Sequence record: PP534475.1
Strand: one strand, 5' to 3'
Source: Escherichia phage YJin-2024a
Length of the DNA stretch: 64,000 nucleotides
The notes beneath the pieces are model-generated. The model saw only the letters and a program-made list of their open reading frames with translations, had not been told where the DNA came from and did not search any database. Positions 5,490 through 60,200 of the stretch are shown here, piece after piece. The translations under genes and the position numbers were made by a program. The stretch's first letter is position 1. Each line of letters opens with the position of its first letter.

Positions 5490-6286
5490 TTTAAGTATTT
5501 TTAAGAACTCTCGTAAAAACTCTTAAAAATACAGACGATACCGGGAGAGTCATAAGTCTCACTCATTAAGTATTTCAAGACAAAATACAGTAACGTCTAT
5601 TATTTTCCAGTTTAAGTCAGGGTGACTTAGTGGTTATGTCCTGCGGTATATTGAGGACTCGGTTAGGCTTGGGGTCATGACTTCCCACCTTTTGCTGCTA
5701 CTCAACAGGAGTTATCGCGAATTACCTGTGCTATTGTGCACCATTAGTGACATCTCTCATGTCAGCATTTCCCACTTTGTGGATAGCTTGAAAAACTACT
5801 CCGATATGGAGAAAGAACTTCACTATCCTAGAATACCTTCTAAAGTTCTTCTTTAGCCTGGACATAGTTAAATCGTAATAAAACTATTCAGCAGACTGGT
5901 TGGTTAGTCTGGAACCAACTACCGCGTGGTTTAGGCAGTGCGCAACTAACCTCGGAAGCTTTTACATTAAAAGCACCAGTTATCCAGTTCTTACCGACCG
6001 TAGGACTCGAACCTACATCTTCCACCAGTTACGGCTTGATAATACCAATTATACTAGGACGGCAGTGTTACTACATAAGTGATTTCCACACCCCACTATT
6101 TATAAATTAGAGAAGAGTTTAGGGGAGAGGTTTCAGACGCCTCATTTTACACGTTCTAGCCACTAACCGGGATTGCCGCCCCCTGTGTACTAGTTTTACA
6201 ACTAACCCACCGACTCTATTCAATGCGCTCCGGTTGGGATTCTGCACTCAGCGTAATCGGCTCGCTGTTCTCTAATTTATGAATAT

Positions 6287-6315
6287 ATTATACAGAATTT
6301 AAAGGCATTTAGCAA
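6287..6315 (-). promoter_or_regulatory. T5-type early promoter (TTGCTA-17-TATAAT) firing into the ORF-free region 5490-6280
   Basis: Minus-strand consensus hexamers with AT-rich upstream element; -35 lies 9 nt after the stop of the 6324-6767 gene. Confidence 0.6.
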
Positions 6316-6323
6316 ATAAATTT

Positions 6324-6767
6324 TTAATTAAATTCGCCAGCAATCTGAGCAGCAGTACCGCCATCATAACGCCCAGGAAATTCTTCCTTAATCGCTTTCA
6401 TCAGCATACCCTTTGTAATTCCAGGGTTTAGCTTAACTAATTCTGCAAAGTATTTACGAATCTCAGTATCAGATAACTGAGGAGGCAGATACTCCTGCAA
6501 CCACTTATTTAGAATGTATTCATACTGAGCGGACTGCAAGCTATAACTATCAAGATCTTGACCATGAAGTTTAGCTTTCATCTGGTTAATGCTTTTTAGT
6601 TGCGCTTTGAGATAAGACACAAATTGTTCAGAAGTGATGAAATCTTTATCAATACGCTGAAGATCCCCGATTATGGTCTGATAGCTTTTAGCGACTTCTT
6701 TATCAGAACCATTAAACTTAGAATCCTGCAAAGCTCTACGCAAAACATCTAAAATATTCTCTTCCAT
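6324..6767 (-). CDS. YqeY/GatB-C-terminal-domain-like protein
   Basis: C-terminal GMLMKAIKEEFPGRYDGGTAAQIAGEF resembles the GatB/YqeY motif. Confidence 0.5.
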   Translation of the reverse strand: MEENILDVLRRALQDSKFNGSDKEVAKSYQTIIGDLQRIDKDFITSEQFVSYLKAQLKSINQMKAKLHGQDLDSYSLQSAQYEYILNKWLQEYLPPQLSDTEIRKYFAELVKLNPGITKGMLMKAIKEEFPGRYDGGTAAQIAGEFN

Positions 6768-6937
6768 TATTTCATTCCTAACGCTTGGTTAAAAGATTGT
6801 TCTGTCATAACTGCTGAGACTTTGGCGAAATCAAACTTTTTAGGGTTTGTAGTGATTTCAGCAACGTTAGAAGTTTTAACAGTTTTCGTAGTACGAATAC
6901 CGCGAGTGTTAACACCAATAATTACAACTGATTTCAT
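6767..6937 (-). CDS. small hypothetical protein (56 aa)
   Basis: ORF below track threshold; stop overlaps next start (TAATG); promoter at 6969-6997 upstream. Confidence 0.35.
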   Translation of the reverse strand: MKSVVIIGVNTRGIRTTKTVKTSNVAEITTNPKKFDFAKVSAVMTEQSFNQALGMK

Positions 6938-19458: not shown

Positions 19459-20130
19459 ATGGTAAGAAAGAGAATAACTACAGAAGATGTGAACTTAGCA
19501 CTTGCTCCTAGAGGAATAGTTATGCTAAGCACGTATATATCAGCTAAATCCAACGCTATATTTAAGTGCTCTAATGGGCATAGTTGGGAGGCTAGAGTAG
19601 ATAATGTAAAAGGTGGTAGAGGTTGCCCTTATTGTGCTAGCCGTACTTTGGATCTTAAAGAAGTAAATGAATCTTTAGCTGCCCGTGGAATAAAGATGGA
19701 AGGTAAATACATCAATTCCAAGAGTAAAATCATGTTTAGCTGTGAGAATGATCATAGGTGGGAGTCTACACTTGATAGTGTTAGGAATCATAATTCTGGC
19801 TGTCCTATATGTTTATTAGAGAAGGATAATTACCCTACTAACGTATATATTTTAGTAAGTAATATGGGAACCAAAATAGGGGTATCTAGCAGAACTAAAG
19901 ATAGACTCAGAGATATTAAAACTTCTTCTAACATACATGATTTAAAAATATTTAAGGAGTATAGCTTTTCAGATAGATCAAAAGCTATGCGTATTGAGAA
20001 AGAAACCCATTTACAGTTTAAGGAATATAATTGTCAATATAAAGATTTTGATGGTGCTACAGAATTTTTTAGTATTGAGCCAGAAGTAGTAGCAAGGTTT
20101 ATTGAGGAAATAATTAATGAACAAAGATGA
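19459..20130 (+). CDS. T5orf172/GIY-YIG-like protein with tandem N-terminal zinc ribbons (homing-endonuclease-like)
   Basis: Two KC.NGH.WE...CP.C repeats; NVYILVSNMGTKIGVSSRTKDRLRD resembles the T5orf172 core. Confidence 0.55.
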   Translation: MVRKRITTEDVNLALAPRGIVMLSTYISAKSNAIFKCSNGHSWEARVDNVKGGRGCPYCASRTLDLKEVNESLAARGIKMEGKYINSKSKIMFSCENDHRWESTLDSVRNHNSGCPICLLEKDNYPTNVYILVSNMGTKIGVSSRTKDRLRDIKTSSNIHDLKIFKEYSFSDRSKAMRIEKETHLQFKEYNCQYKDFDGATEFFSIEPEVVARFIEEIINEQR

Positions 20131-21971: not shown

Positions 21972-22008
21972 AGCCGGGTTGCTAGTCGACCTGGCTTTTA
22001 TTTTATTT
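21972..22008 (+). terminator. intrinsic terminator after nrdD
   Basis: 8-bp hairpin then TTTTATTTTATTT; overlaps the -35 of the next promoter. Confidence 0.55.
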
Positions 22009-22558: not shown

Positions 22559-22748
22559 GGGTTTAAACGCCGCTTTGGAAAACGCATTAATGCAACACTG
22601 GGAAACTGGCTATAGGGATGGTGTTGAATCCTGCGCTACTATGCTAGAAGTTATTGCTAATACCTTAATGGAGAAAGGCAATAAAGAATTAGCTGAGCTA
22701 TTAGACAGTATTGGGCAAAACTTCAGAGAACAGGTGAAAAATGCGTAG
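22527..22748 (+). CDS. hypothetical protein
   Basis: 73-aa ORF overlapping both neighbours. Confidence 0.4.
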   Translation: MAFSKPMLPDKGLNAALENALMQHWETGYRDGVESCATMLEVIANTLMEKGNKELAELLDSIGQNFREQVKNA

Positions 22749-23556
22749 ATTAATTATTATTAGTGGTGCAGGTTTGAGTGTTGAAAGTGGTGTACGAGCT
22801 TTTCGTACTGATACTGCTAGTGGTAAAGCATTGTGGGATGATTATGATCTAGAAGAAGTATGTAATATTCATGCCTTTCGTGGTAATTTTTATCATAAAA
22901 CTCATATGTTTTACAACAAGCGTCGTGAAGAGCTAAAAACTGTTGAACCCAATCTTGCACATTTGCGTATTGGTGAATGGTATAAACAATATCCAGGTCA
23001 AATAGTAAACTTGACTACCAACGTTGATGACCTTATTGAGCGTGCTGGCGTTCCACATAGTGACATTCTGCACATTCACGGATATTTAAAAGAGGTTGTT
23101 GTAGCTGATAGCTACAATAGTAGCAATAAACGGATTATTGATGTAGGATACAATTCTATTGATCCAGATGATTATAAATGGGTTAAACCTAATGTAATCT
23201 TCTTTGGAGAGCATGCTCCTGCATATGCAGAAATGTACAATGTTTTTGATGGTATTACCAGTCAAGATATGATAGTTGTGGTTGGTTGTTCTAACCAAGT
23301 AATTAACTTCTACTGGGAATTATTTCCTGTTCTTAATTTGACTGCTGCGAAACTTATGGTTGTTAACTACTATGATAGTGCCCTAGCGGCGGAACCGGAC
23401 TATCAAGGTATGACTCGTAGTGAGATGTACCAGCTGGAAGAACGCGGTGTCCCTTACTGGAGTAAAGGTGCGGTAGATGCTTTCAGTGATCCTGATTTTA
23501 TTGCTCGTGTGGAAGCTCATTTAGAGGGTAGACCTTATGTGTCAGGAAATAAGTAA
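22741..23556 (+). CDS. Sir2 (sirtuin-fold) protein lacking the zinc-ribbon module
   Basis: SGAGLSVESGVRAFR, TTNVDDLIERAG, HIHGY, NVIFFGE, VVVGCS match sirtuin Rossmann-fold motifs; no CxxC pairs. Confidence 0.65.
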   Translation: MRRLIIISGAGLSVESGVRAFRTDTASGKALWDDYDLEEVCNIHAFRGNFYHKTHMFYNKRREELKTVEPNLAHLRIGEWYKQYPGQIVNLTTNVDDLIERAGVPHSDILHIHGYLKEVVVADSYNSSNKRIIDVGYNSIDPDDYKWVKPNVIFFGEHAPAYAEMYNVFDGITSQDMIVVVGCSNQVINFYWELFPVLNLTAAKLMVVNYYDSALAAEPDYQGMTRSEMYQLEERGVPYWSKGAVDAFSDPDFIARVEAHLEGRPYVSGNK

Positions 23557-24049
23557 TACTCCAATTATTTTTCTGGACATTGATGGGGTGCTCAATTCGA
23601 GCATCTCCCACCATCATGCACCTGATGATGAAAAGATTTTCTTTGGGAGTGACTGGGTTTTCAAACCGCTTCTCAAGGCTTTTCAAGATTTTATTCGTCC
23701 TTCCTCGATAATGATTGTTGGGGTATCCTCATGGTTCTCTGTCAGGAATGAGATGGAGAACGTTCAGATTATGACCGGATTAGGTCTTATCGATCGTTTT
23801 CTTGGTACAACGGATTTTACTGGTGGTGGATTATCTAGGGGTAATTCTGTTCTTCGCTTCGTTGAAAAGCATAAGCTCAAACATTGGTGTGTGCTGGATG
23901 ATGCCGGTGCTATGATGTATCAGTATCCAACGGTTATAGTCAATGGTAGGACTGGGATAAATCTTCAAGATTTAAAAGCTGTTAGCTATATGCTAGAATT
24001 TAGCCCAGATCTTGAAATGTGTAAATCCTTGCAACAATTTAAGGTGTAA
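23537..24049 (+). CDS. HAD-superfamily phosphatase
   Basis: Motif I FLDIDGVL and motif IV VLDDAG; overlaps the Sir2-like gene by 20 nt. Confidence 0.55.
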   Translation: MCQEISNTPIIFLDIDGVLNSSISHHHAPDDEKIFFGSDWVFKPLLKAFQDFIRPSSIMIVGVSSWFSVRNEMENVQIMTGLGLIDRFLGTTDFTGGGLSRGNSVLRFVEKHKLKHWCVLDDAGAMMYQYPTVIVNGRTGINLQDLKAVSYMLEFSPDLEMCKSLQQFKV

Positions 24050-24051
24050 AT

Positions 24052-24480
24052 ATGTTCAATAATGTATTCTCTAAAGAAGCTAACCCAATTTTGGTTAACT
24101 TTTGGCGTACTCTCCCAGCTAGCCTGTATAATGAGGCTATTAACTCTTTGAAAATATGGTGTGAGAATAACGAAATCTCCTTTGCTTTTAAAGATGATAT
24201 TGATGAGGCTCCCTGTATTGGTTTAATTGTGCAGGTAGAGGAGGGTCTTGAAGAGATTGTGGGCTGGAAAGAGTTAGACGAAATGGGCTTAGTTTTTGCG
24301 TTAAACTATAAGTTGTTTATGCCCAACAAACACCGTATTGCTATTAATTATAAAACTAGTGAATCTCCTGGTTTTCAGGTTAATGAACGTTACGGTTGGT
24401 CTTACTCACCAGAAGAAGTGAATGATGGCATCCAAAAACTTCGCCGTTTTGGTTATCAAATTCCGGGTTTAACTGCCTAA
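24052..24480 (+). CDS. hypothetical protein, paralog A of a tandem pair
   Basis: Shares with the next ORF the pattern D.PC.G......G.E...W.EL..MGL..ALN..LF.P......I...PGL. Confidence 0.5.
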   Translation: MFNNVFSKEANPILVNFWRTLPASLYNEAINSLKIWCENNEISFAFKDDIDEAPCIGLIVQVEEGLEEIVGWKELDEMGLVFALNYKLFMPNKHRIAINYKTSESPGFQVNERYGWSYSPEEVNDGIQKLRRFGYQIPGLTA

Positions 24481-24489
24481 GGAGGCAGG

Positions 24490-24879
24490 ATGGAACAAGT
24501 ATATTGGCGTCAGATTGACCCTAGTTTGGTGAAACGTGCGGAGAAGCTGCTACAACGTTGGTTGGGGGTAAGGCAAGCCTCCTTCACTTTTCCTGAGCAG
24601 CAAACAGATGATCCCTGTGTTGGTGTTTTCCTATCCGGCTACGCGGGGGAATGGGAATTAGATTGGAATGAATTGTCTGCTATGGGCTTGATTGTTGCCC
24701 TAAACTTCTCTTTGTTCCATCCACGTGGTTTGGCCATATGTCGTGTGCCGGATGACGGTTGTTCGCCCCATCTTTTACAGGTGGAAGATGATATTTGGGA
24801 GTACACTCCAGATATTCTCAAAGAAGCTAAAGAACAATTAAACCGTGTTGGGATCTATGTTCCGGGATTAAATGACTAA
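24490..24879 (+). CDS. hypothetical protein, paralog B of a tandem pair
   Basis: Same architecture as 24052-24480; own RBS AAGGAGG. Confidence 0.5.
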   Translation: MEQVYWRQIDPSLVKRAEKLLQRWLGVRQASFTFPEQQTDDPCVGVFLSGYAGEWELDWNELSAMGLIVALNFSLFHPRGLAICRVPDDGCSPHLLQVEDDIWEYTPDILKEAKEQLNRVGIYVPGLND

Positions 24880-24973
24880 TGATTTTTATTAGCTGAACTC
24901 TGATTACCGAGTCATTTTGGCTCGGATTATTACATAATCTTTCCAGTTAATTGACAGTATGAATAAATTGTCA

Positions 24974-25002
24974 TTGACAAATTGGATGGATTATGTAATA
25001 AT
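24974..25002 (+). promoter_or_regulatory. promoter TTGACA-17-AATAAT with TG extension
   Basis: Two TTGACA hexamers (24951, 24974) upstream of the HNH gene. Confidence 0.45.
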
Positions 25003-25021
25003 ATATGTATTGGAGGTAAAG

Positions 25022-25474
25022 ATGTCGCTCACACAACAAGAACTTTTAGATAATTTCCGATATGAAGATGGAAAATTATTTAGAACTACAGGAAGAAATG
25101 CAGGCAAGGAATGTTGTGTTTCAACGGGAAATGGTTATTACCGTATTTCTCTAGGGAGTAGAACTATGCTCCGACACAGAGCTATCTTCTTAATGCATCA
25201 TGGATACTTACCTGATTTGGTAGATCATGAGAACACTATAAAAGGTGATGATCGTATTGAAAATCTTAGGGAGCAGACAGTATCTGGTAATCTAAGAAAT
25301 ATCAAATATAAGAAAGGAATGCATGTTTACCCTTCTGGTAGTAAGAACTGGCAAGTAGTATTTACTATTAACCGTAAACGGATAGTTAAAGGAACATATG
25401 ACAACTATGAGGTTGCATGTTCTATGGCCAAGATGTTTAGAGGCCAATTATATGGTAGGGAATCAATCCAGTAA
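25022..25474 (+). CDS. HNH homing endonuclease
   Basis: HRAIFLMHHGYLPDLVDHENTIKGDDRIENLR is an HNH motif; start moved to MSLTQQ (RBS GGAGG). Confidence 0.6.
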   Translation: MSLTQQELLDNFRYEDGKLFRTTGRNAGKECCVSTGNGYYRISLGSRTMLRHRAIFLMHHGYLPDLVDHENTIKGDDRIENLREQTVSGNLRNIKYKKGMHVYPSGSKNWQVVFTINRKRIVKGTYDNYEVACSMAKMFRGQLYGRESIQ

Positions 25475-57273: not shown

Positions 57274-60200
57274 TTAAGAATTTCCTAATGTTTTCAGACT
57301 AGCACCGTTCTCATTCAGAGCTAATTCTACTGCGTCTCTTAGAGCACCACTATTACTAGAGGCAAACTCTCTAAAACTTGCAGCATCCATAGCACTAATA
57401 TTCAGGATGATAGGTCTTCCTGAAGTTGAGTTAGATGAGGTTTTTAGCTCATCATTAGGTGTAGCTTTCATAGGAACCATAGGGGTAACTACTTCTGTAC
57501 CATGCTCACCCATTTGATAGCTAACCCCAGGGTACATATTACCACCCTCAGCACGAGGAACGAAAGAGTTAGCACCACCTATACCTTTATCGCCTCTGAT
57601 ATAAGATAATTCACCAGCATTAGCAGACATAGACACATCTATATTCTTCTGACGCTCTCCTAAGGTTAGGTAACTAGTTGTACTTGCTCCAGAATCCACA
57701 GAGGGTATAGAGGATGCACTAGAAGCAGCGGCTAAGGATAGTGCGCCTGCAGCAGCCGCAGTGGCCATCATCGTTAACCCTAATGGTAAGAACGGACGGG
57801 TAGCTGCAGCGTTCATCATAGCTACGGCTGTAGATATGATTATTTGCTTTTTAGCTTCTCGCTGTTGTATCTTAGTCTTTTCTGCCTCCAACTTCTTGAT
57901 TTTAGCTTTAGATTCCTCAGATTTACCATCACGCTTCTGTTCTGCTGCAATAGCCTGGTCTATTGCACTTATTTGCTGGTTAGCGGAATATGCCATCATC
58001 TGTCCCACCATCTGCATACCTGCAGATATGGTTGTTATACTATCCAAGCTATCTTGTGCATTAGCCACCACTGCTAAGGAGAAATTACCTATGCTGTTAG
58101 CCAATGCTGTAGAAGCAGAATCCACTTCTGACATCTTAGCTATAGCCTGATCATACATAGACATTCTATTCTCAAAATCAGCAAACTCTTTATCTGCTCC
58201 AGATAGACCAGTTGTAGGAGTGAATGTACCCCCTAGTGAGGATATGACTGATTTGTACGTTTGATCCTCTCTTTGCTTTTTAAGCTGTTCTAAGGCTGCT
58301 GAAGTTTTATAAATCTCATTACGATATTTAATTTCTTCTTCAGTATTACCTTTAGACAGCTCCAGCTGCTGCTGCAGAATAGATAACCTTTCAGTGAGAA
58401 TCTGGGACTGACCAGTGACATTTCTCTGCGTTTGGCTAACCTCTAAGTCATCCATGAGACCTGACACAAGTGAGGCAGCAGCCTGTTTCTCTGCTTCCCA
58501 TTTTTCTCTACGTATTTGTGCTTGAGCACGTCTAGATTGCTCTATCTTAGCTTGGCTGTTTTCTTGTTTAGCATATAGCTCAGTTTTTTTCTTCTCTATC
58601 TCTAGTTCAAGATTTAACTGTTCTAGACGATACTGAGTATCAGTCATAGTACGGTTATTTAAAAGGGCTATTTCTTCGTCAATGCCGAGAATTTTATCTG
58701 TAAGATCTTTAACCTTCTTCTGAGCTTCCATACCCTGATTGGTAAGTTTAAGTTTCTCCAGCTGAACTTTTTCAATTTCTTTCTCAACAGCTTTATTTCC
58801 CTGGTTTGTTTGAAGAACACGGCGTAAAGCAGCTTCTTGCTCTTCTAGCTGTTGGAGTTCTAAACGCCTACCGGCTTCCTGTGCTTTTTCTTTATCCTTA
58901 GTTTGGTTATATACATCAGCTATCTTCTGTTGAACTGCTAACTGGTTCTTAGTCTCATTACCAGTTAGTTTAACGTACTCAGATAGAGCCTGGGATGCAG
59001 TTTTCATTTCAGATAAAGTGTTAAACCCTAAGTTGAGATTTTTAACATACTCATCAGCACTCTTACCAGTTCCTGCGGATAGAGATTCTACATTTCTAAT
59101 TACATCTTCAAAAGTTGCACTGGTTTTAGCAGCAGTATCTGTGCTCATAGCTATATTTTGAAAGTCATTAGCTAAATCACCAGAAGTTTTCTTAGTTTGA
59201 TTATATGCTTTTTGTTGCTCTACTAGACCCTTTAGAGCAGCAGAGTTAAAGTCATATACAGCATCAGGATCCGTAGCATCTTTCTGTAGATTAATCTGTT
59301 TCTGGAACTCTGGATTAGCTTTTGCAACAGCAGCTCCGGCAGTTTGAAACGCTGATTTCCAAGCATTAAGGTTTTCAGTAGAATCTGCAACTTCTTTATC
59401 TAAGCGTTCTACTTGTAGACCCATAGCTGCAGTTTCTGCTACAAATTGCTTATTGGCCTCCGAAGCACCTATTGTTAAAAGATCAACAGGGTCACCTTTA
59501 CTAACTTGATTTATAGCTAGTCTTGTATAGAAATCTGCTTGTCCCATACGTTTATCATACTCAGCCTTTAGTTTGTTACGCTTATCAAGAGATTCCCTAT
59601 ACATACCTAAAGCTTTATTGTATCCTTCTTCAGAAGCAGATAAACTTAGAGCAACAGCACCTACATTACTGGGATCTATCAGTTTATTAGTTTTTTCTTG
59701 AGCTCTAGCTGCTTCAGCAGATATAGAAGCCTGAGAGATATAGAATATTGTGTTGATATAATCCATCATTGGTCCTAAGTACTTAGCAGCAGCTTGTTGT
59801 ACTTTTCTTAGGGCAGAGTTAGCGTTAGCAGCAAATAGCTCCCAAGGAGTTAATTTAAGAACCTCATCTAGGTAGCCAAGCTGCTTAGTAGATTCAGTAA
59901 TTATCGCGTTAGCGTATGCTTGTTGTCTCTGGAAAGTGGTAAGACTATTAATATTATAAGTTATACCTGTGTTAGCAGCATTTAACTGTTTAACATAGTC
60001 AGCATATGCGTCATTAAGACGAATGGTGATACCAAGCTCATCTAGAAGTTCGATCTCTTGTTTTGATACACCCTTAATTACACGGTTAAGTGCATCAGTC
60101 ATATCAACACCAAGAACAGCCGCCGCACGACGAGCTACTAAACCAAATTTACTAAGTTGTTCAGCATCAAATCCGTAGGCTGAGGCAGTGGAGGCCTGTC

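What the first reader, a model, noticed from the sequence alone, without database searches (positions are those of the whole stretch)
24052..24879. Tandem pair of diverged paralogous small genes
Two adjacent ORFs (142 and 129 aa) share a conserved core pattern (D.PC.G, W.EL..MGL..ALN..LF.P, PGL) but differ elsewhere, each with its own RBS. Tandem diverging duplicates in phages often mark arms-race genes.
Basis: seen in the sequence. Interest (0 to 1): 0.55.

Follow-up and report, generated by a model that had tools for sequence, protein, structure and literature searches.

The report
Conserved duplicated DUF7415 genes, T5-like phage
The two small neighbouring genes are true but ancient duplicates (the phage T5 genes T5.106 and T5.107) from a widespread, uncharacterised phage protein family called DUF7415, and they evolve under strong constraint rather than like fast-changing arms-race genes.

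Summary
ORF1 (24052-24480, 142 aa) and ORF2 (24490-24879, 129 aa) are real paralogues: 32% identity over 124 aa, E=4e-21. Both match Pfam DUF7415 and PHROG 2502.

The window is a T5-like phage (Tequintavirus), and the ORFs are the orthologues of T5.106 and T5.107.

- **Age.** The duplication is old. The pair sits at the same place, between Sir2 and the origin-binding helicase gene, in Tequintavirus, Epseptimavirus, Sugarlandvirus and phage Eos. Two other Demerecviridae carry a single copy there.
- **Selection.** dN/dS is 0.07-0.09, the same as for neighbouring housekeeping genes. The arms-race reading is not supported.
- **Asymmetry.** ORF2 keeps all 12 near-invariant residues of the family. 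ORF1 has lost six, and the upstream copy is degenerate in every two-copy lineage.
- **Wider family.** The single module (about 55 aa) occurs in more than 900 phage genomes. It is recurrently fused to, or wedged between, nucleotide-metabolism enzymes.

Function is unknown. My best inference, at low confidence, is a subfunctionalised heteromeric binding or adaptor module linked to nucleotide metabolism. This is an ordinary, catalogued family with modest interest.

The parts
24052..24480 (+). ORF1, 142 aa. It is the orthologue of T5.106 and the upstream ('a-type', degenerate) two-module DUF7415 protein.
   Evidence: ORF list. Pfam DUF7415 E 1e-34 with two stretches, and phrog_2502 E 3e-62. It is 93.7% identical to the T5 protein by tblastn, and the AKFV33 and T5 annotations name T5.106. 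AF2 pLDDT is 86.7.
24094..24246 (+). ORF1 N-terminal DUF7415 module (residues 15-65)
   Evidence: The N-half scanned alone scores 71.9 bits against a gathering threshold of 27, covering model positions 1-52 of 53. The predicted topology is beta-alpha-beta-beta.
24256..24387 (+). ORF1 C-terminal DUF7415 module (residues 69-112), degenerate. Six of the 12 near-invariant family residues are replaced: S>D, H>M, G>K, L>H, A>R, G>S.
   Evidence: The C-half scanned alone scores 51.0 bits in Pfam. It scores only 33.6 bits against the single-module family HMM, compared with 81.1 for ORF2. Residue comparison comes from the alignments.
24490..24879 (+). ORF2, 129 aa. It is the orthologue of T5.107 and the downstream ('b-type', canonical) two-module DUF7415 protein.
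   Evidence: ORF list. Pfam DUF7415 E 2.5e-31 with two stretches, and phrog_2502 E 2e-61. The T5 and AKFV33 annotations name T5.107. AF2 pLDDT is 91.6 and pTM 0.85.
24496..24651 (+). ORF2 N-terminal DUF7415 module (residues 3-54)
   Evidence: The N-half scanned alone scores 58.4 bits in Pfam. Predicted topology is beta-alpha-beta-beta.
24658..24783 (+). ORF2 C-terminal DUF7415 module (residues 57-98), canonical. It keeps all 12 positions that are at least 90% conserved in 67 diverse single-module proteins: S, G, L, N, H, P, G, L, A, G, S, Y.
   Evidence: Pfam 53.9 bits for the C-half alone. 81.1 bits against the single-module HMM. Invariant columns are listed.
24041..24046 (+). Shine-Dalgarno sequence AAGGTG of ORF1. 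The HAD gene stops at 24049, 2 nt before the ORF1 ATG, which suggests translational coupling.
   Evidence: Sequence and ORF coordinates.
24479..24485 (+). Shine-Dalgarno sequence AAGGAGG of ORF2, inside the 9-nt spacer. ORF1 and ORF2 are in the same frame, separated by TAA plus three codons.
   Evidence: Sequence.
22741..23556 (+). Sir2-family gene (T5.102 orthologue). It is the syntenic upstream neighbour of DUF7415 genes throughout Demerecviridae.
   Evidence: Pfam SIR2 E 1.7e-24. The same synteny is seen in T5, AKFV33, Sugarlandvirus, Slocum, Eos and L049.
23537..24049 (+). HAD-family phosphatase gene (T5.105 orthologue, Pfam HAD_SAK_2), immediately upstream of ORF1
   Evidence: Pfam HAD_SAK_2 E 2.8e-20. 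A HAD_SAK_2 gene also lies 1.8 kb from a DUF7415 gene in the T4-like phage Aeh1.
21972..21996 (+). Terminator-like hairpin after nrdD. It marks the upstream boundary of the transcription unit that ends with ORF1 and ORF2.
   Evidence: Terminator scan. A terminator and promoter are annotated at the equivalent place in T5 and AKFV33.
24904..24928 (+). Weak hairpin (CCGAG, 9-nt loop, CTCGG) 25-49 nt after the ORF2 stop. It is the positional equivalent of the terminator annotated after T5.107.
   Evidence: Sequence. The T5 annotation places a terminator at 58952-58976, 25-49 nt after the T5.107 stop. The simple scan did not call it.

Best explanation
**Shown**
- ORF1 and ORF2 are the T5.106 and T5.107 orthologues of a T5-like phage.
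- They are an ancient tandem gene duplicate.
- Each protein appears to be an internal tandem of two DUF7415 modules (beta-alpha-beta-beta). The two modules pack into one compact, acidic alpha/beta domain that has no solved structural relative.
- The genes are the last two of an early transcription unit: small ORFs, Sir2, HAD, ORF1, ORF2. This unit lies between nrdD and the origin-binding helicase gene. Spacing suggests translational coupling.
- Both genes are under strong purifying selection.

**Inferred**
- The DUF7415 module is a small, non-enzymatic binding or adaptor module. Its near-invariant residues (W-N..S..GL...N....HP.GLA..R....G.S...W.Y) would form the binding site.
- Single-module proteins probably act as homodimers. 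The two-module T5-type protein would then be a fused pseudo-dimer.
- After the gene duplication, the upstream copy (ORF1) lost the canonical site and became a partner or scaffold. The downstream copy (ORF2) kept the site. The two products would therefore work together as a heteromer with one canonical site.
- Fusions and gene neighbourhoods point to nucleotide or NAD-related metabolism. The module may bind a nucleotide-type ligand, or tether or regulate nucleotide-pool enzymes during early infection.

**How likely.** The identity and evolutionary parts are near certain. The heteromer and nucleotide-linked binding role is a low-confidence inference.
For: **Identity**
- The locus is 94-96% identical at the nucleotide level to Tequintavirus genomes.
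- Orthology to T5.106 and T5.107 is supported by synteny and annotation.

**Paralogy**
- BLASTP between the two ORFs gives E=4e-21.
- Both fall in the same Pfam family and the same PHROG.

**Two modules per protein**
- Each half scanned alone passes the Pfam gathering score. Scores are 71.9 and 51.0 bits for ORF1 and 58.4 and 53.9 bits for ORF2, against a threshold of 27.
- Two matched stretches are also found in the Slocum, Sugarlandvirus and Eos proteins.
- AF2 predicts the same beta-alpha-beta-beta order in both halves of both proteins, with pLDDT 91.6 and 86.7.

**Constraint**
- dN/dS is 0.07-0.09.

**Old duplication**
- The pair is present in about 520 Demerecviridae records.
- The same arrangement occurs in Sugarlandvirus and Eos.
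- The upstream copies form one clade with 89% bootstrap support.
- Slocum and L049 carry a single copy at the same locus.

**Asymmetry**
- Against an HMM of 67 single-module proteins, downstream copies score 81, 71 and 61 bits in the window, Eos and Sugarlandvirus.
- Upstream copies score 34, 24 and 8 bits in the same three lineages.
- Single-copy lineages keep a canonical module, at 67 and 82 bits.
- Degeneration is therefore seen only where a canonical partner is present.

**Coupled expression**
- Gaps between successive genes are 2 nt and 9 nt, and ORF2 has a strong Shine-Dalgarno sequence.
- In Sugarlandvirus and Eos the two genes overlap.

**Link to nucleotide metabolism**
- The module is fused to DUF550 dATP/dGTP pyrophosphohydrolase (two proteins), to thymidylate kinase (one) and to DUF3850/ASCH (two).
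- In Jiaodavirus a 72-aa single-module gene is wedged between nrdD and nrdG, overlapping both.
- It lies next to NudE/NUDIX and near the dNMP kinase gene in RB16 and Slopekvirus-like phages.
- In Aeh1 it sits in the td-denA-rnlA cluster, 1.8 kb from a HAD_SAK_2 gene.
- In Demerecviridae the operon usually follows nrdD and contains Sir2.
Against: - No experiment, structure or paper bears on this family. All functional statements are inference.
- Heteromer formation was not tested.
- Many single-module genes sit in contexts unrelated to nucleotide metabolism:
  - between the terminase subunits of a lambda-like phage;
  - between capsid gene L and tail gene X of phiCTX;
  - after gpA in P2-like prophages;
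  - among anonymous small ORFs.
- Early regions of T4-like phages are full of nucleotide-metabolism genes, so adjacency there is weak evidence.
- A natural T5-like genome (L024) has lost Sir2 and the catalytic half of HAD but keeps both ORFs intact. The pair therefore does not depend on those neighbours.
- My own profile tests barely support the internal repeat. hhalign of N-halves against the single-module profile is co-linear over 50 columns, but only P=0.0035 and 9% probability. N-half against C-half of the 16-sequence alignment is not significant in the expected register.
Confidence: 0.35

Rival explanations
1. Counter-defence proteins. On this view the DUF7415 module is a small acidic inhibitor or 'sponge' that neutralises a host immune protein or immune signalling nucleotide. 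The T5 pair would be two specialised versions.
For: - The proteins are small and acidic. pI is 4.6-4.7 for the pair, and the median is 4.8 for 114 single-module proteins.
- They are expressed from an early operon.
- The module behaves like a mobile accessory gene. It occupies many different genomic positions in more than 900 phage records and in prophages.
- In Slopekvirus-like phages it lies within 3.5 kb of an Acb1 (anti-CBASS) gene, and next to NUDIX and GmrSD_N-like genes.
- Invariant aromatic and basic residues would suit a nucleotide-binding pocket.
Against: - dN/dS of 0.07-0.09 is the same as for housekeeping neighbours.
- The pair is almost universally retained at one locus across Demerecviridae. 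It is not patchily distributed.
- The motif is extremely conserved across phages of very different hosts. That argues against a fast-evolving protein target, though it is compatible with a sponge.
- There is no match to any characterised anti-defence family present in Pfam, nor to PADLOC models.
Confidence: 0.25
2. Two independent, partly redundant paralogues that do not interact. Each would bind a different partner or ligand after neofunctionalisation of ORF1.
For: - Both copies are under equally strong purifying selection.
- ORF1 orthologues conserve their own distinct residues, such as WKELDEMGLVFALN and FGYQIPGLTA.
- Single-copy lineages show that one gene can suffice.
Against: - The upstream copy degenerates at the family's invariant positions in all three two-copy lineages. 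Single-copy lineages stay canonical.
- Gene order and tight coupling are conserved.
- Both points fit a partner relationship better than independence.
Confidence: 0.15
3. A miniature enzyme acting on a nucleotide or NAD-derived substrate. The invariant His, Arg, Asn, Ser, Asp, Trp and Tyr of the module would form an active site at a dimer interface. ORF2 would be the catalytic subunit and ORF1 a pseudo-enzyme.
For: - Conservation of polar residues is unusually strict: N is invariant, and S, H, P, G, S and Y are at least 90% conserved across 67 diverse sequences.
- The module is fused to, or adjacent to, NTP pyrophosphatases, thymidylate kinase, NrdD/NrdG, NUDIX, HAD and Sir2.
Against: - The module is only about 55 residues long.
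- It has no sequence or fold similarity to any known enzyme.
- It occurs in non-metabolic contexts.
Confidence: 0.1
4. The similarity is chance, or the ORFs are not genes. Alternatively they are a 'tail tube protein' and an 'exonuclease', as some GenBank records label the orthologues.
For: Some records carry those labels.
Against: - BLASTP between the two ORFs gives E=4e-21.
- Pfam and PHROG matches have E-values from 1e-31 to 1e-62.
- dN/dS well below 1 shows that the proteins are under selection.
- AF2 models are confident.
- The genes lie in the early replication and nucleotide-metabolism region, not the structural module.
Confidence: 0.02

Closest known systems
Phage T5 genes T5.106 (YP_006934.1) and T5.107 (YP_006935.1), both 'hypothetical protein'
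   Same: The window proteins are orthologues of these two genes. Order, spacing (9-nt gap, same frame) and flanking genes all match: HAD T5.105 upstream, then a terminator and the origin-binding T5.108 downstream. ORF1 is 93.7% identical to the T5 protein (tblastn) and ORF2 95% (locus L026 = the T5 genome); annotation.
   Different: In this window the two small ORFs T5.103 and T5.104 between Sir2 and HAD are absent. An HNH endonuclease gene (24959-25474) is inserted after the pair.
Pfam PF24187 (DUF7415) and PHROG phrog_2502 (unknown function)
   Same: Both ORFs match well above threshold. Pfam gives 119 and 108 bits against a threshold of 27. The PHROG matches are full length, E about 1e-62.
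   Different: The family has no described function. Most members are single-module proteins of 60-100 aa. The T5-type proteins carry two modules, and the second gene copy is a Demerecviridae-specific elaboration.
Single-module DUF7415 proteins of other phages and prophages, for example Jiaodavirus VMC04_64, RB16p170, Aeh1p318, phiCTX orf7 and Aeromonas P2-like prophage genes
   Same: The ORF2 C-terminal module carries the same motif, IDWNELS..GLI.RIN.EILHPLGLA..RDPETG.S.G.LV..DG.WEY. It is 31-55% identical to 66 diverse members.
   Different: They are stand-alone proteins, or fusions to DUF550, MazG-like, thymidylate kinase or ASCH-like domains. They sit in many genomic positions.
[not shown]
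   Same: It is a small alpha/beta protein. Between 48 and 51 residues superpose at 2.3-2.6 A.

Membership tests
Pfam DUF7415 (PF24187) | HMM score above the curated gathering threshold (27 bits) | tested here: met
   ORF1 scores 119 bits and ORF2 108 bits. Each half scanned alone also passes: 71.9, 51.0, 58.4 and 53.9 bits.
PHROG phrog_2502 | Full-length match to the family profile | tested here: met
   ORF1 residues 11-142 match profile positions 2-134 of 134, E 3.3e-62. ORF2 residues 1-129 match positions 4-134 of 134, E 2.4e-61.
T5.106/T5.107 orthologous pair | High identity plus conserved position between the HAD/Sir2 genes and the origin-binding helicase gene | tested here: met
   Identity to Tequintavirus orthologues is 89-99%, with the same gene order.
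DUF7415 canonical single-module motif | Retention of the 12 positions that are at least 90% conserved in 67 diverse members (S7, G10, L11, N16, H21, P22, G24, L25, A26, G34, S36, Y49 of alignment A2) | tested here: met
   The ORF2 C-module keeps 12 of 12 and scores 81 bits against the A2 HMM. The ORF1 C-module keeps only 6 of 12 and scores 34 bits. So the feature is met for ORF2 and not met for ORF1.
Rapidly evolving 'arms-race' phage genes | Elevated dN/dS relative to neighbours, or patchy presence among close relatives | tested here: not met
   dN/dS is 0.07 and 0.09, against 0.05-0.08 for neighbours. The pair is present in essentially all Markadamsvirinae records.
Known anti-defence families represented in Pfam (e.g. 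Acb1 PF23474) and defence-system proteins (PADLOC) | Profile match | tested here: not met
   The Pfam scan at E up to 1 returns only DUF7415 and one insignificant HrpB_C hit. PADLOC gives no hits. No dedicated anti-defence library was available, so families absent from Pfam were not tested.
[not shown]
   [not shown]
Tail tube protein / exonuclease (labels on some orthologues) | Sequence or fold similarity to tail tube or nuclease families, and location in the structural module | tested here: not met
   [not shown]
Obligate heteromer of paralogous subunits | Physical ORF1-ORF2 interaction | not testable with these tools
   No multimer prediction is available. Only indirect support exists: asymmetric degeneration and coupled genes.

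The most novel reading that the evidence does not exclude
DUF7415 would be a previously unrecognised small fold that binds a nucleotide-derived molecule, such as an immune second messenger or an NAD/ADP-ribose derivative. In Demerecviridae it would have evolved from a homodimer, first into a fused pseudo-dimer and then into a two-gene heteromer with a single remaining ligand site. On this reading T5.106 and T5.107 form a new type of phage sponge or regulator of nucleotide signalling or nucleotide pools, and the free-standing module in more than 900 other phages does the same job.
Probability: 0.15. Interest if true: 0.65.

Novelty: new member of a known kind. Interest (0 to 1): 0.3.

Why it matters
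**For this window.** The result is mostly a clean-up. The pair is real but ordinary. It is the T5.106/T5.107 orthologues, which are catalogued as DUF7415 and are under purifying selection. The labels 'tail tube protein', 'exonuclease' and 'Sir2' carried by some orthologues and neighbours appear to be wrong.

**More broadly.** DUF7415 is one of the more widespread small phage modules without any known function. It is found in T5-like, T4-like, P2-like and lambda-like phages and in prophages. It has an unusually strict motif, no solved structural relative, and repeated fusions to nucleotide-pool enzymes.

**A practical entry point.** The nested duplication seen here points to ORF2's C-terminal module as the place to look for the activity. 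Domain duplication came first, then gene duplication, and one copy then degenerated. If the module turns out to bind a nucleotide ligand or an enzyme of dNTP synthesis, that would annotate thousands of phage genes at once.

Tried and rejected
**Structure**
- Foldseek against BFVD returned only family members.
- PDB sequence searches with single sequences and with two profiles found nothing meaningful.

**Annotation libraries and literature**
- PADLOC and NCBIfam gave nothing.
- Literature searches for DUF7415, PF24187, T5.106/T5.107 and phrog_2502/3954 returned zero papers.
- Searches for T5 gene-essentiality or Sir2 work turned up nothing on these genes.

**Related loci**
- The search for related loci with a diverse two-module alignment failed because no stretch was conserved enough.
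- With P0055 and P0049 it found no loci.

**Internal repeat**
- An independent test of the repeat gave only weak support. hhalign of N-half against C-half of the 16-sequence alignment picked a different, short register at 25% probability.
- A richer N-half profile against the single-module profile was co-linear over 50 columns, but only P=0.0035.
- The single-module HMM does not hit the N-halves.
- The two-module claim therefore rests on Pfam and on the predicted topology.

**Ideas I dropped**
- Obligatory functional coupling to Sir2 or HAD. Locus L024 lacks Sir2 and the HAD catalytic half but keeps the pair, and Sugarlandvirus, Slocum and L049 lack HAD.
- Conserved stop-codon read-through. 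The in-frame arrangement is not kept in Sugarlandvirus or Eos.
- The long multi-stretch hits in the HMMER search. They are Ig/cadherin-repeat false positives.
Full report
**1. The observation**

The two ORFs are present exactly as described: 24052-24480 (142 aa) and 24490-24879 (129 aa), both on the + strand. The quoted motifs are in the sequence.
- WKELDEMGLVFALNYKLFMP in ORF1 against WNELSAMGLIVALNFSLFHP in ORF2.
- A ...PGL... C-terminal tail in both.
- A (D/E).PC.G motif in both.

Each ORF has its own Shine-Dalgarno sequence. AAGGTG lies 5 nt before the ORF1 ATG, and AAGGAGG lies inside the 9-nt spacer before ORF2.

BLASTP of one ORF against the other gives 32% identity over 124 aa with one gap, E=4e-21. 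Both hit the same Pfam family, DUF7415 (E 1e-34 and 2.5e-31), and the same PHROG, phrog_2502 (full length, E about 1e-62). The paralogy is real.

**2. Where we are**

The region is 94-96% identical to Tequintavirus genomes such as Stokescottia, Kenya-K16 and AKFV33. In AKFV33 and T5 the two genes are annotated as hypothetical proteins similar to T5.106 and T5.107.

They close an early transcription unit. It starts after the nrdD terminator (21972-21996) and contains the following.
- Three small ORFs.
- A Sir2-family gene (22741-23556).
- A HAD-family phosphatase gene (23537-24049, Pfam HAD_SAK_2).
- ORF1, then ORF2.

A weak hairpin follows at the position where T5 has an annotated terminator. 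Next come an HNH endonuclease gene, which T5 does not have at this place, and the T5.108 origin-binding helicase gene. The HAD stop is 2 nt from the ORF1 start, and ORF1 and ORF2 are 9 nt apart, so coupled expression is likely.

**3. Anatomy of the proteins**

Pfam reported two matched stretches in each protein. I scanned the four halves separately. Each passes the gathering score of 27 bits on its own.

| Half | Pfam score (bits) |
|---|---|
| ORF1 N-half | 71.9 |
| ORF1 C-half | 51.0 |
| ORF2 N-half | 58.4 |
| ORF2 C-half | 53.9 |

The orthologues and relatives in Slocum, Sugarlandvirus and Eos also show two stretches.

AlphaFold2 models are confident: ORF2 has pLDDT 91.6 and pTM 0.85, and ORF1 has pLDDT 86.7. 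Both show the same order of elements, beta-alpha-beta-beta followed by beta-alpha-alpha-beta-beta-alpha. So each protein looks like an internal tandem of two modules, and the pair carries four.

My own profile tests support this only weakly.
- A profile of 33 N-halves aligns co-linearly over 50 columns with the single-module family profile, but only at P=0.0035.
- The comparison based on the 16-sequence alignment is not significant in that register.
- The single-module HMM does not hit the N-halves.

I therefore treat the internal duplication as supported by Pfam and by predicted topology, not as independently proven.

**4. No characterised relative**

- PDB sequence searches, with single sequences and with two profiles, find nothing.
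- Foldseek against viral predicted structures returns only DUF7415 proteins.
- PADLOC and NCBIfam give nothing.
- The literature library holds no paper mentioning DUF7415, PF24187, T5.106/T5.107 or the PHROG numbers.

**5. The wider family**

An exhaustive HMMER search with a profile of both paralogues found 159 proteins. About 25 are two-module proteins of 128-164 aa. Most of the rest match only the C-terminal module.

That module is about 55 aa, with the consensus IDWNxLSxxGLIxRINxEILHPLGLAxxRxPxTGxSxGxLVAxDGxWEY. Across 67 diverse sequences one Asn is invariant, and S, G, L, H, P, G, L, A, G, S and Y are at least 90% conserved.

The long multi-stretch hits are Ig/cadherin-repeat false positives.

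The single-module proteins are 60-100 aa and acidic, with a median pI of 4.8. tblastn finds the module in 908 phage records. It sits in very different contexts.

| Phage group | Context |
|---|---|
| Jiaodavirus (T4-like) | Between nrdD and nrdG, overlapping both |
| RB16 and Slopekvirus-like phages | Next to NudE/NUDIX; the Slopekvirus-like loci also carry an Acb1 gene within 3.5 kb |
| Aeh1 (T4-like) | Beside rnlA in the td-denA cluster, 1.8 kb from a HAD_SAK_2 gene |
| P2-like Aeromonas prophages | After gpA, two genes from a DUF3850 gene |
| phiCTX | Between capsid gene L and tail gene X |
| A lambda-like phage | Between the terminase subunits |

All recognisable fusion partners relate to nucleotides or nucleic acids.
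- DUF550 dATP/dGTP pyrophosphohydrolase, in two proteins.
- DUF3850/ASCH, in two proteins.
- Thymidylate kinase, in one protein.
- By eye, P0106 also has a MazG-like EExGE N-terminal domain.

**6. Evolution of the pair**

tblastn finds two copies in almost all of 523 Demerecviridae records. The same Sir2 ... pair ... origin-binding-gene arrangement occurs in Klebsiella Sugarlandvirus, which has no HAD gene, and in phage Eos.

Serratia phage Slocum and locus L049 have a single two-module gene at that place.

In a neighbour-joining tree of 33 two-module proteins, the upstream copies of Tequintavirus, Sugarlandvirus and Eos form one clade with 89% bootstrap support. The duplication therefore predates these genera.

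Nei-Gojobori dN/dS was computed over 29 T5-like genomes.

| Gene | dN/dS within Tequintavirus | dN/dS against Epseptimavirus |
|---|---|---|
| ORF1 | 0.07 | 0.11 |
| ORF2 | 0.09 | 0.19 |
| Sir2 | 0.08 | 0.20 |
| HAD | 0.05 | 0.07 |
| T5.108 | 0.06 | 0.05 |

This is purifying selection at ordinary strength. At the protein level the pair diverges faster than HAD or T5.108 but slower than Sir2. Identity between the two genera is 65-73% for the pair, about 90% for HAD and T5.108, and about 52% for Sir2.

**7. A fixed asymmetry**

I scored each C-terminal module against an HMM of the single-module family.

| Lineage | Downstream copy (bits) | Upstream copy (bits) |
|---|---|---|
| This window | 81 | 34 |
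| Eos | 71 | 24 |
| Sugarlandvirus | 61 | 8 |

The single-copy lineages keep a canonical module, at 67 bits in Slocum and 82 bits in L049.

In this window ORF2 keeps 12 of the 12 near-invariant positions. ORF1 keeps six, with S>D, H>M, G>K, L>H, A>R and G>S. Yet ORF1 is as constrained as ORF2.

A copy degenerates at the family's signature positions only where a canonical copy sits next to it, and gene order and coupling are conserved. This is the pattern expected when a homo-oligomer becomes a hetero-oligomer of paralogues. That is an inference, because I could not test the interaction.

**8. What it most likely does**

*Shown.* The pair is an ancient, constrained, co-expressed set of two-module DUF7415 proteins without a characterised relative.

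*Inferred, confidence about 0.35.* The module is a non-enzymatic binding or adaptor unit whose invariant residues form the site. ORF1 and ORF2 act together with one canonical site, in ORF2's C-module. The role is connected with nucleotide or NAD-related metabolism during early infection.

The last point rests on the following.
- The fusions to NTP pyrophosphatases and thymidylate kinase.
- The nrdD-X-nrdG arrangement in Jiaodavirus.
- NudE/NUDIX adjacency in RB16 and Slopekvirus-like phages.
- HAD_SAK_2 co-occurrence in two unrelated phage lineages.
- The nrdD/Sir2 operon of Demerecviridae.

Three things weaken it.
- Many single-module genes sit in non-metabolic contexts.
- T4-like early regions are rich in nucleotide-metabolism genes anyway.
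- A natural T5-like genome (L024) has deleted Sir2 and the catalytic half of HAD while keeping both ORFs intact.

*Rivals.*
- A counter-defence sponge or inhibitor, at 0.25.
- Independent paralogues, at 0.15.
- A miniature enzyme, at 0.10.
- Chance similarity, or the 'tail tube' and 'exonuclease' labels, is refuted.

**9. Comparison with what is known, and verdict**

The ORFs are members of Pfam DUF7415 and PHROG 2502, and they are orthologues of T5.106 and T5.107. All defining features I could test are met, except that ORF1's C-module fails the canonical-motif test.

They are not members of any characterised functional family. The AcrIC4 resemblance is insignificant.

The finding is a new member of a catalogued but uncharacterised kind. 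Interest is modest, at 0.3. The arms-race interpretation is not supported. The useful by-products are the module-level anatomy, the asymmetric degeneration, and the link of a very widespread phage module to nucleotide-pool enzymes.

Noticed in passing
window 23537-24049: The T5.105 orthologue is labelled 'Sir2 (NAD-dependent deacetylase)' in RefSeq records and in PHROG phrog_18062. It actually matches Pfam HAD_SAK_2 (E 2.8e-20) and starts with a HAD motif I (FLDIDGVLN), so the Sir2 label looks like annotation carry-over.
   Followed up: partly
L024 5171-5560 (IMGVR_UViG_2706796320, a T5-like genome): A natural deletion fuses the first 25 aa of the g73 orthologue to HAD residues 66-170. This removes the whole Sir2 gene and the HAD catalytic N-terminus. 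The ORF1 and ORF2 orthologues downstream are intact.
   Followed up: partly
window 24478-24492: ORF1 and ORF2 are in the same reading frame, separated only by TAA and three codons (GGA GGC AGG). T5 has the same arrangement. In Sugarlandvirus and Eos the two genes overlap out of frame, so read-through fusion is not a conserved feature.
   Followed up: yes
window 24959-25474, and 19459-20130: An HNH homing-endonuclease gene sits between the pair and the T5.108 orthologue (Pfam HNH_3, phrog_99). T5 has none at this position, but AKFV33 does. Another ORF lies just upstream of nrdD at 19459-20130; its positional counterpart in AKFV33 (orf100) is annotated as a T5.154-like endonuclease.
   Followed up: partly
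GenBank records of orthologues (e.g. MZ571828.1 49780-50175; JLBYU43; GEC_vB_N5; T5_ev219): ORF2 orthologues are annotated 'tail tube protein' and ORF1 orthologues 'exonuclease' in several records. No search run here supports either label.
   Followed up: yes
L038 3489-3707 (Klebsiella phage ValerieMcCarty04, Jiaodavirus): A 72-aa single-module DUF7415 gene is wedged between nrdD and nrdG, overlapping both. Many Jiaodavirus records show the same arrangement. It is labelled 'MazG-like family protein', probably because of homology to MazG/DUF550-DUF7415 fusions.
   Followed up: partly
L006-L008 around 6001-6930 (Aeromonas P2-like prophages); proteins P0084, P0172, P0303, P0309: DUF7415 and DUF3850 (ASCH-like) occur both as neighbours, two genes apart after gpA, and as fused proteins in both orders. 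This suggests a functional link between the two small domains. P0309 is named 'RNA-binding protein' in E. coli.
   Followed up: partly
window 22741-23556 versus 23537-24049: The Sir2 and HAD genes overlap by 20 nt here. The two small ORFs that separate them in T5 and AKFV33 (T5.103 and T5.104) are absent.
   Followed up: no
ORF2 residues about 47-58 (window about 24628-24663): The loop linking the two modules of ORF2 is the only indel-rich part of the alignment: SGYAGE here, against TSRDQNDVPVD or EIHVPELESTEY in Epseptimavirus-type orthologues. The equivalent ORF1 segment is conserved. Site-wise selection was not tested.
   Followed up: no
proteins P0057, P0072, P0096, P0099, P0108 and others: Giant repetitive Ig/cadherin-like proteins scored E 1e-5 to 1e-16 against the DUF7415 profile through many short stretches matching the 'DG.W.Y' end of the module. 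They are false positives.
   Followed up: yes
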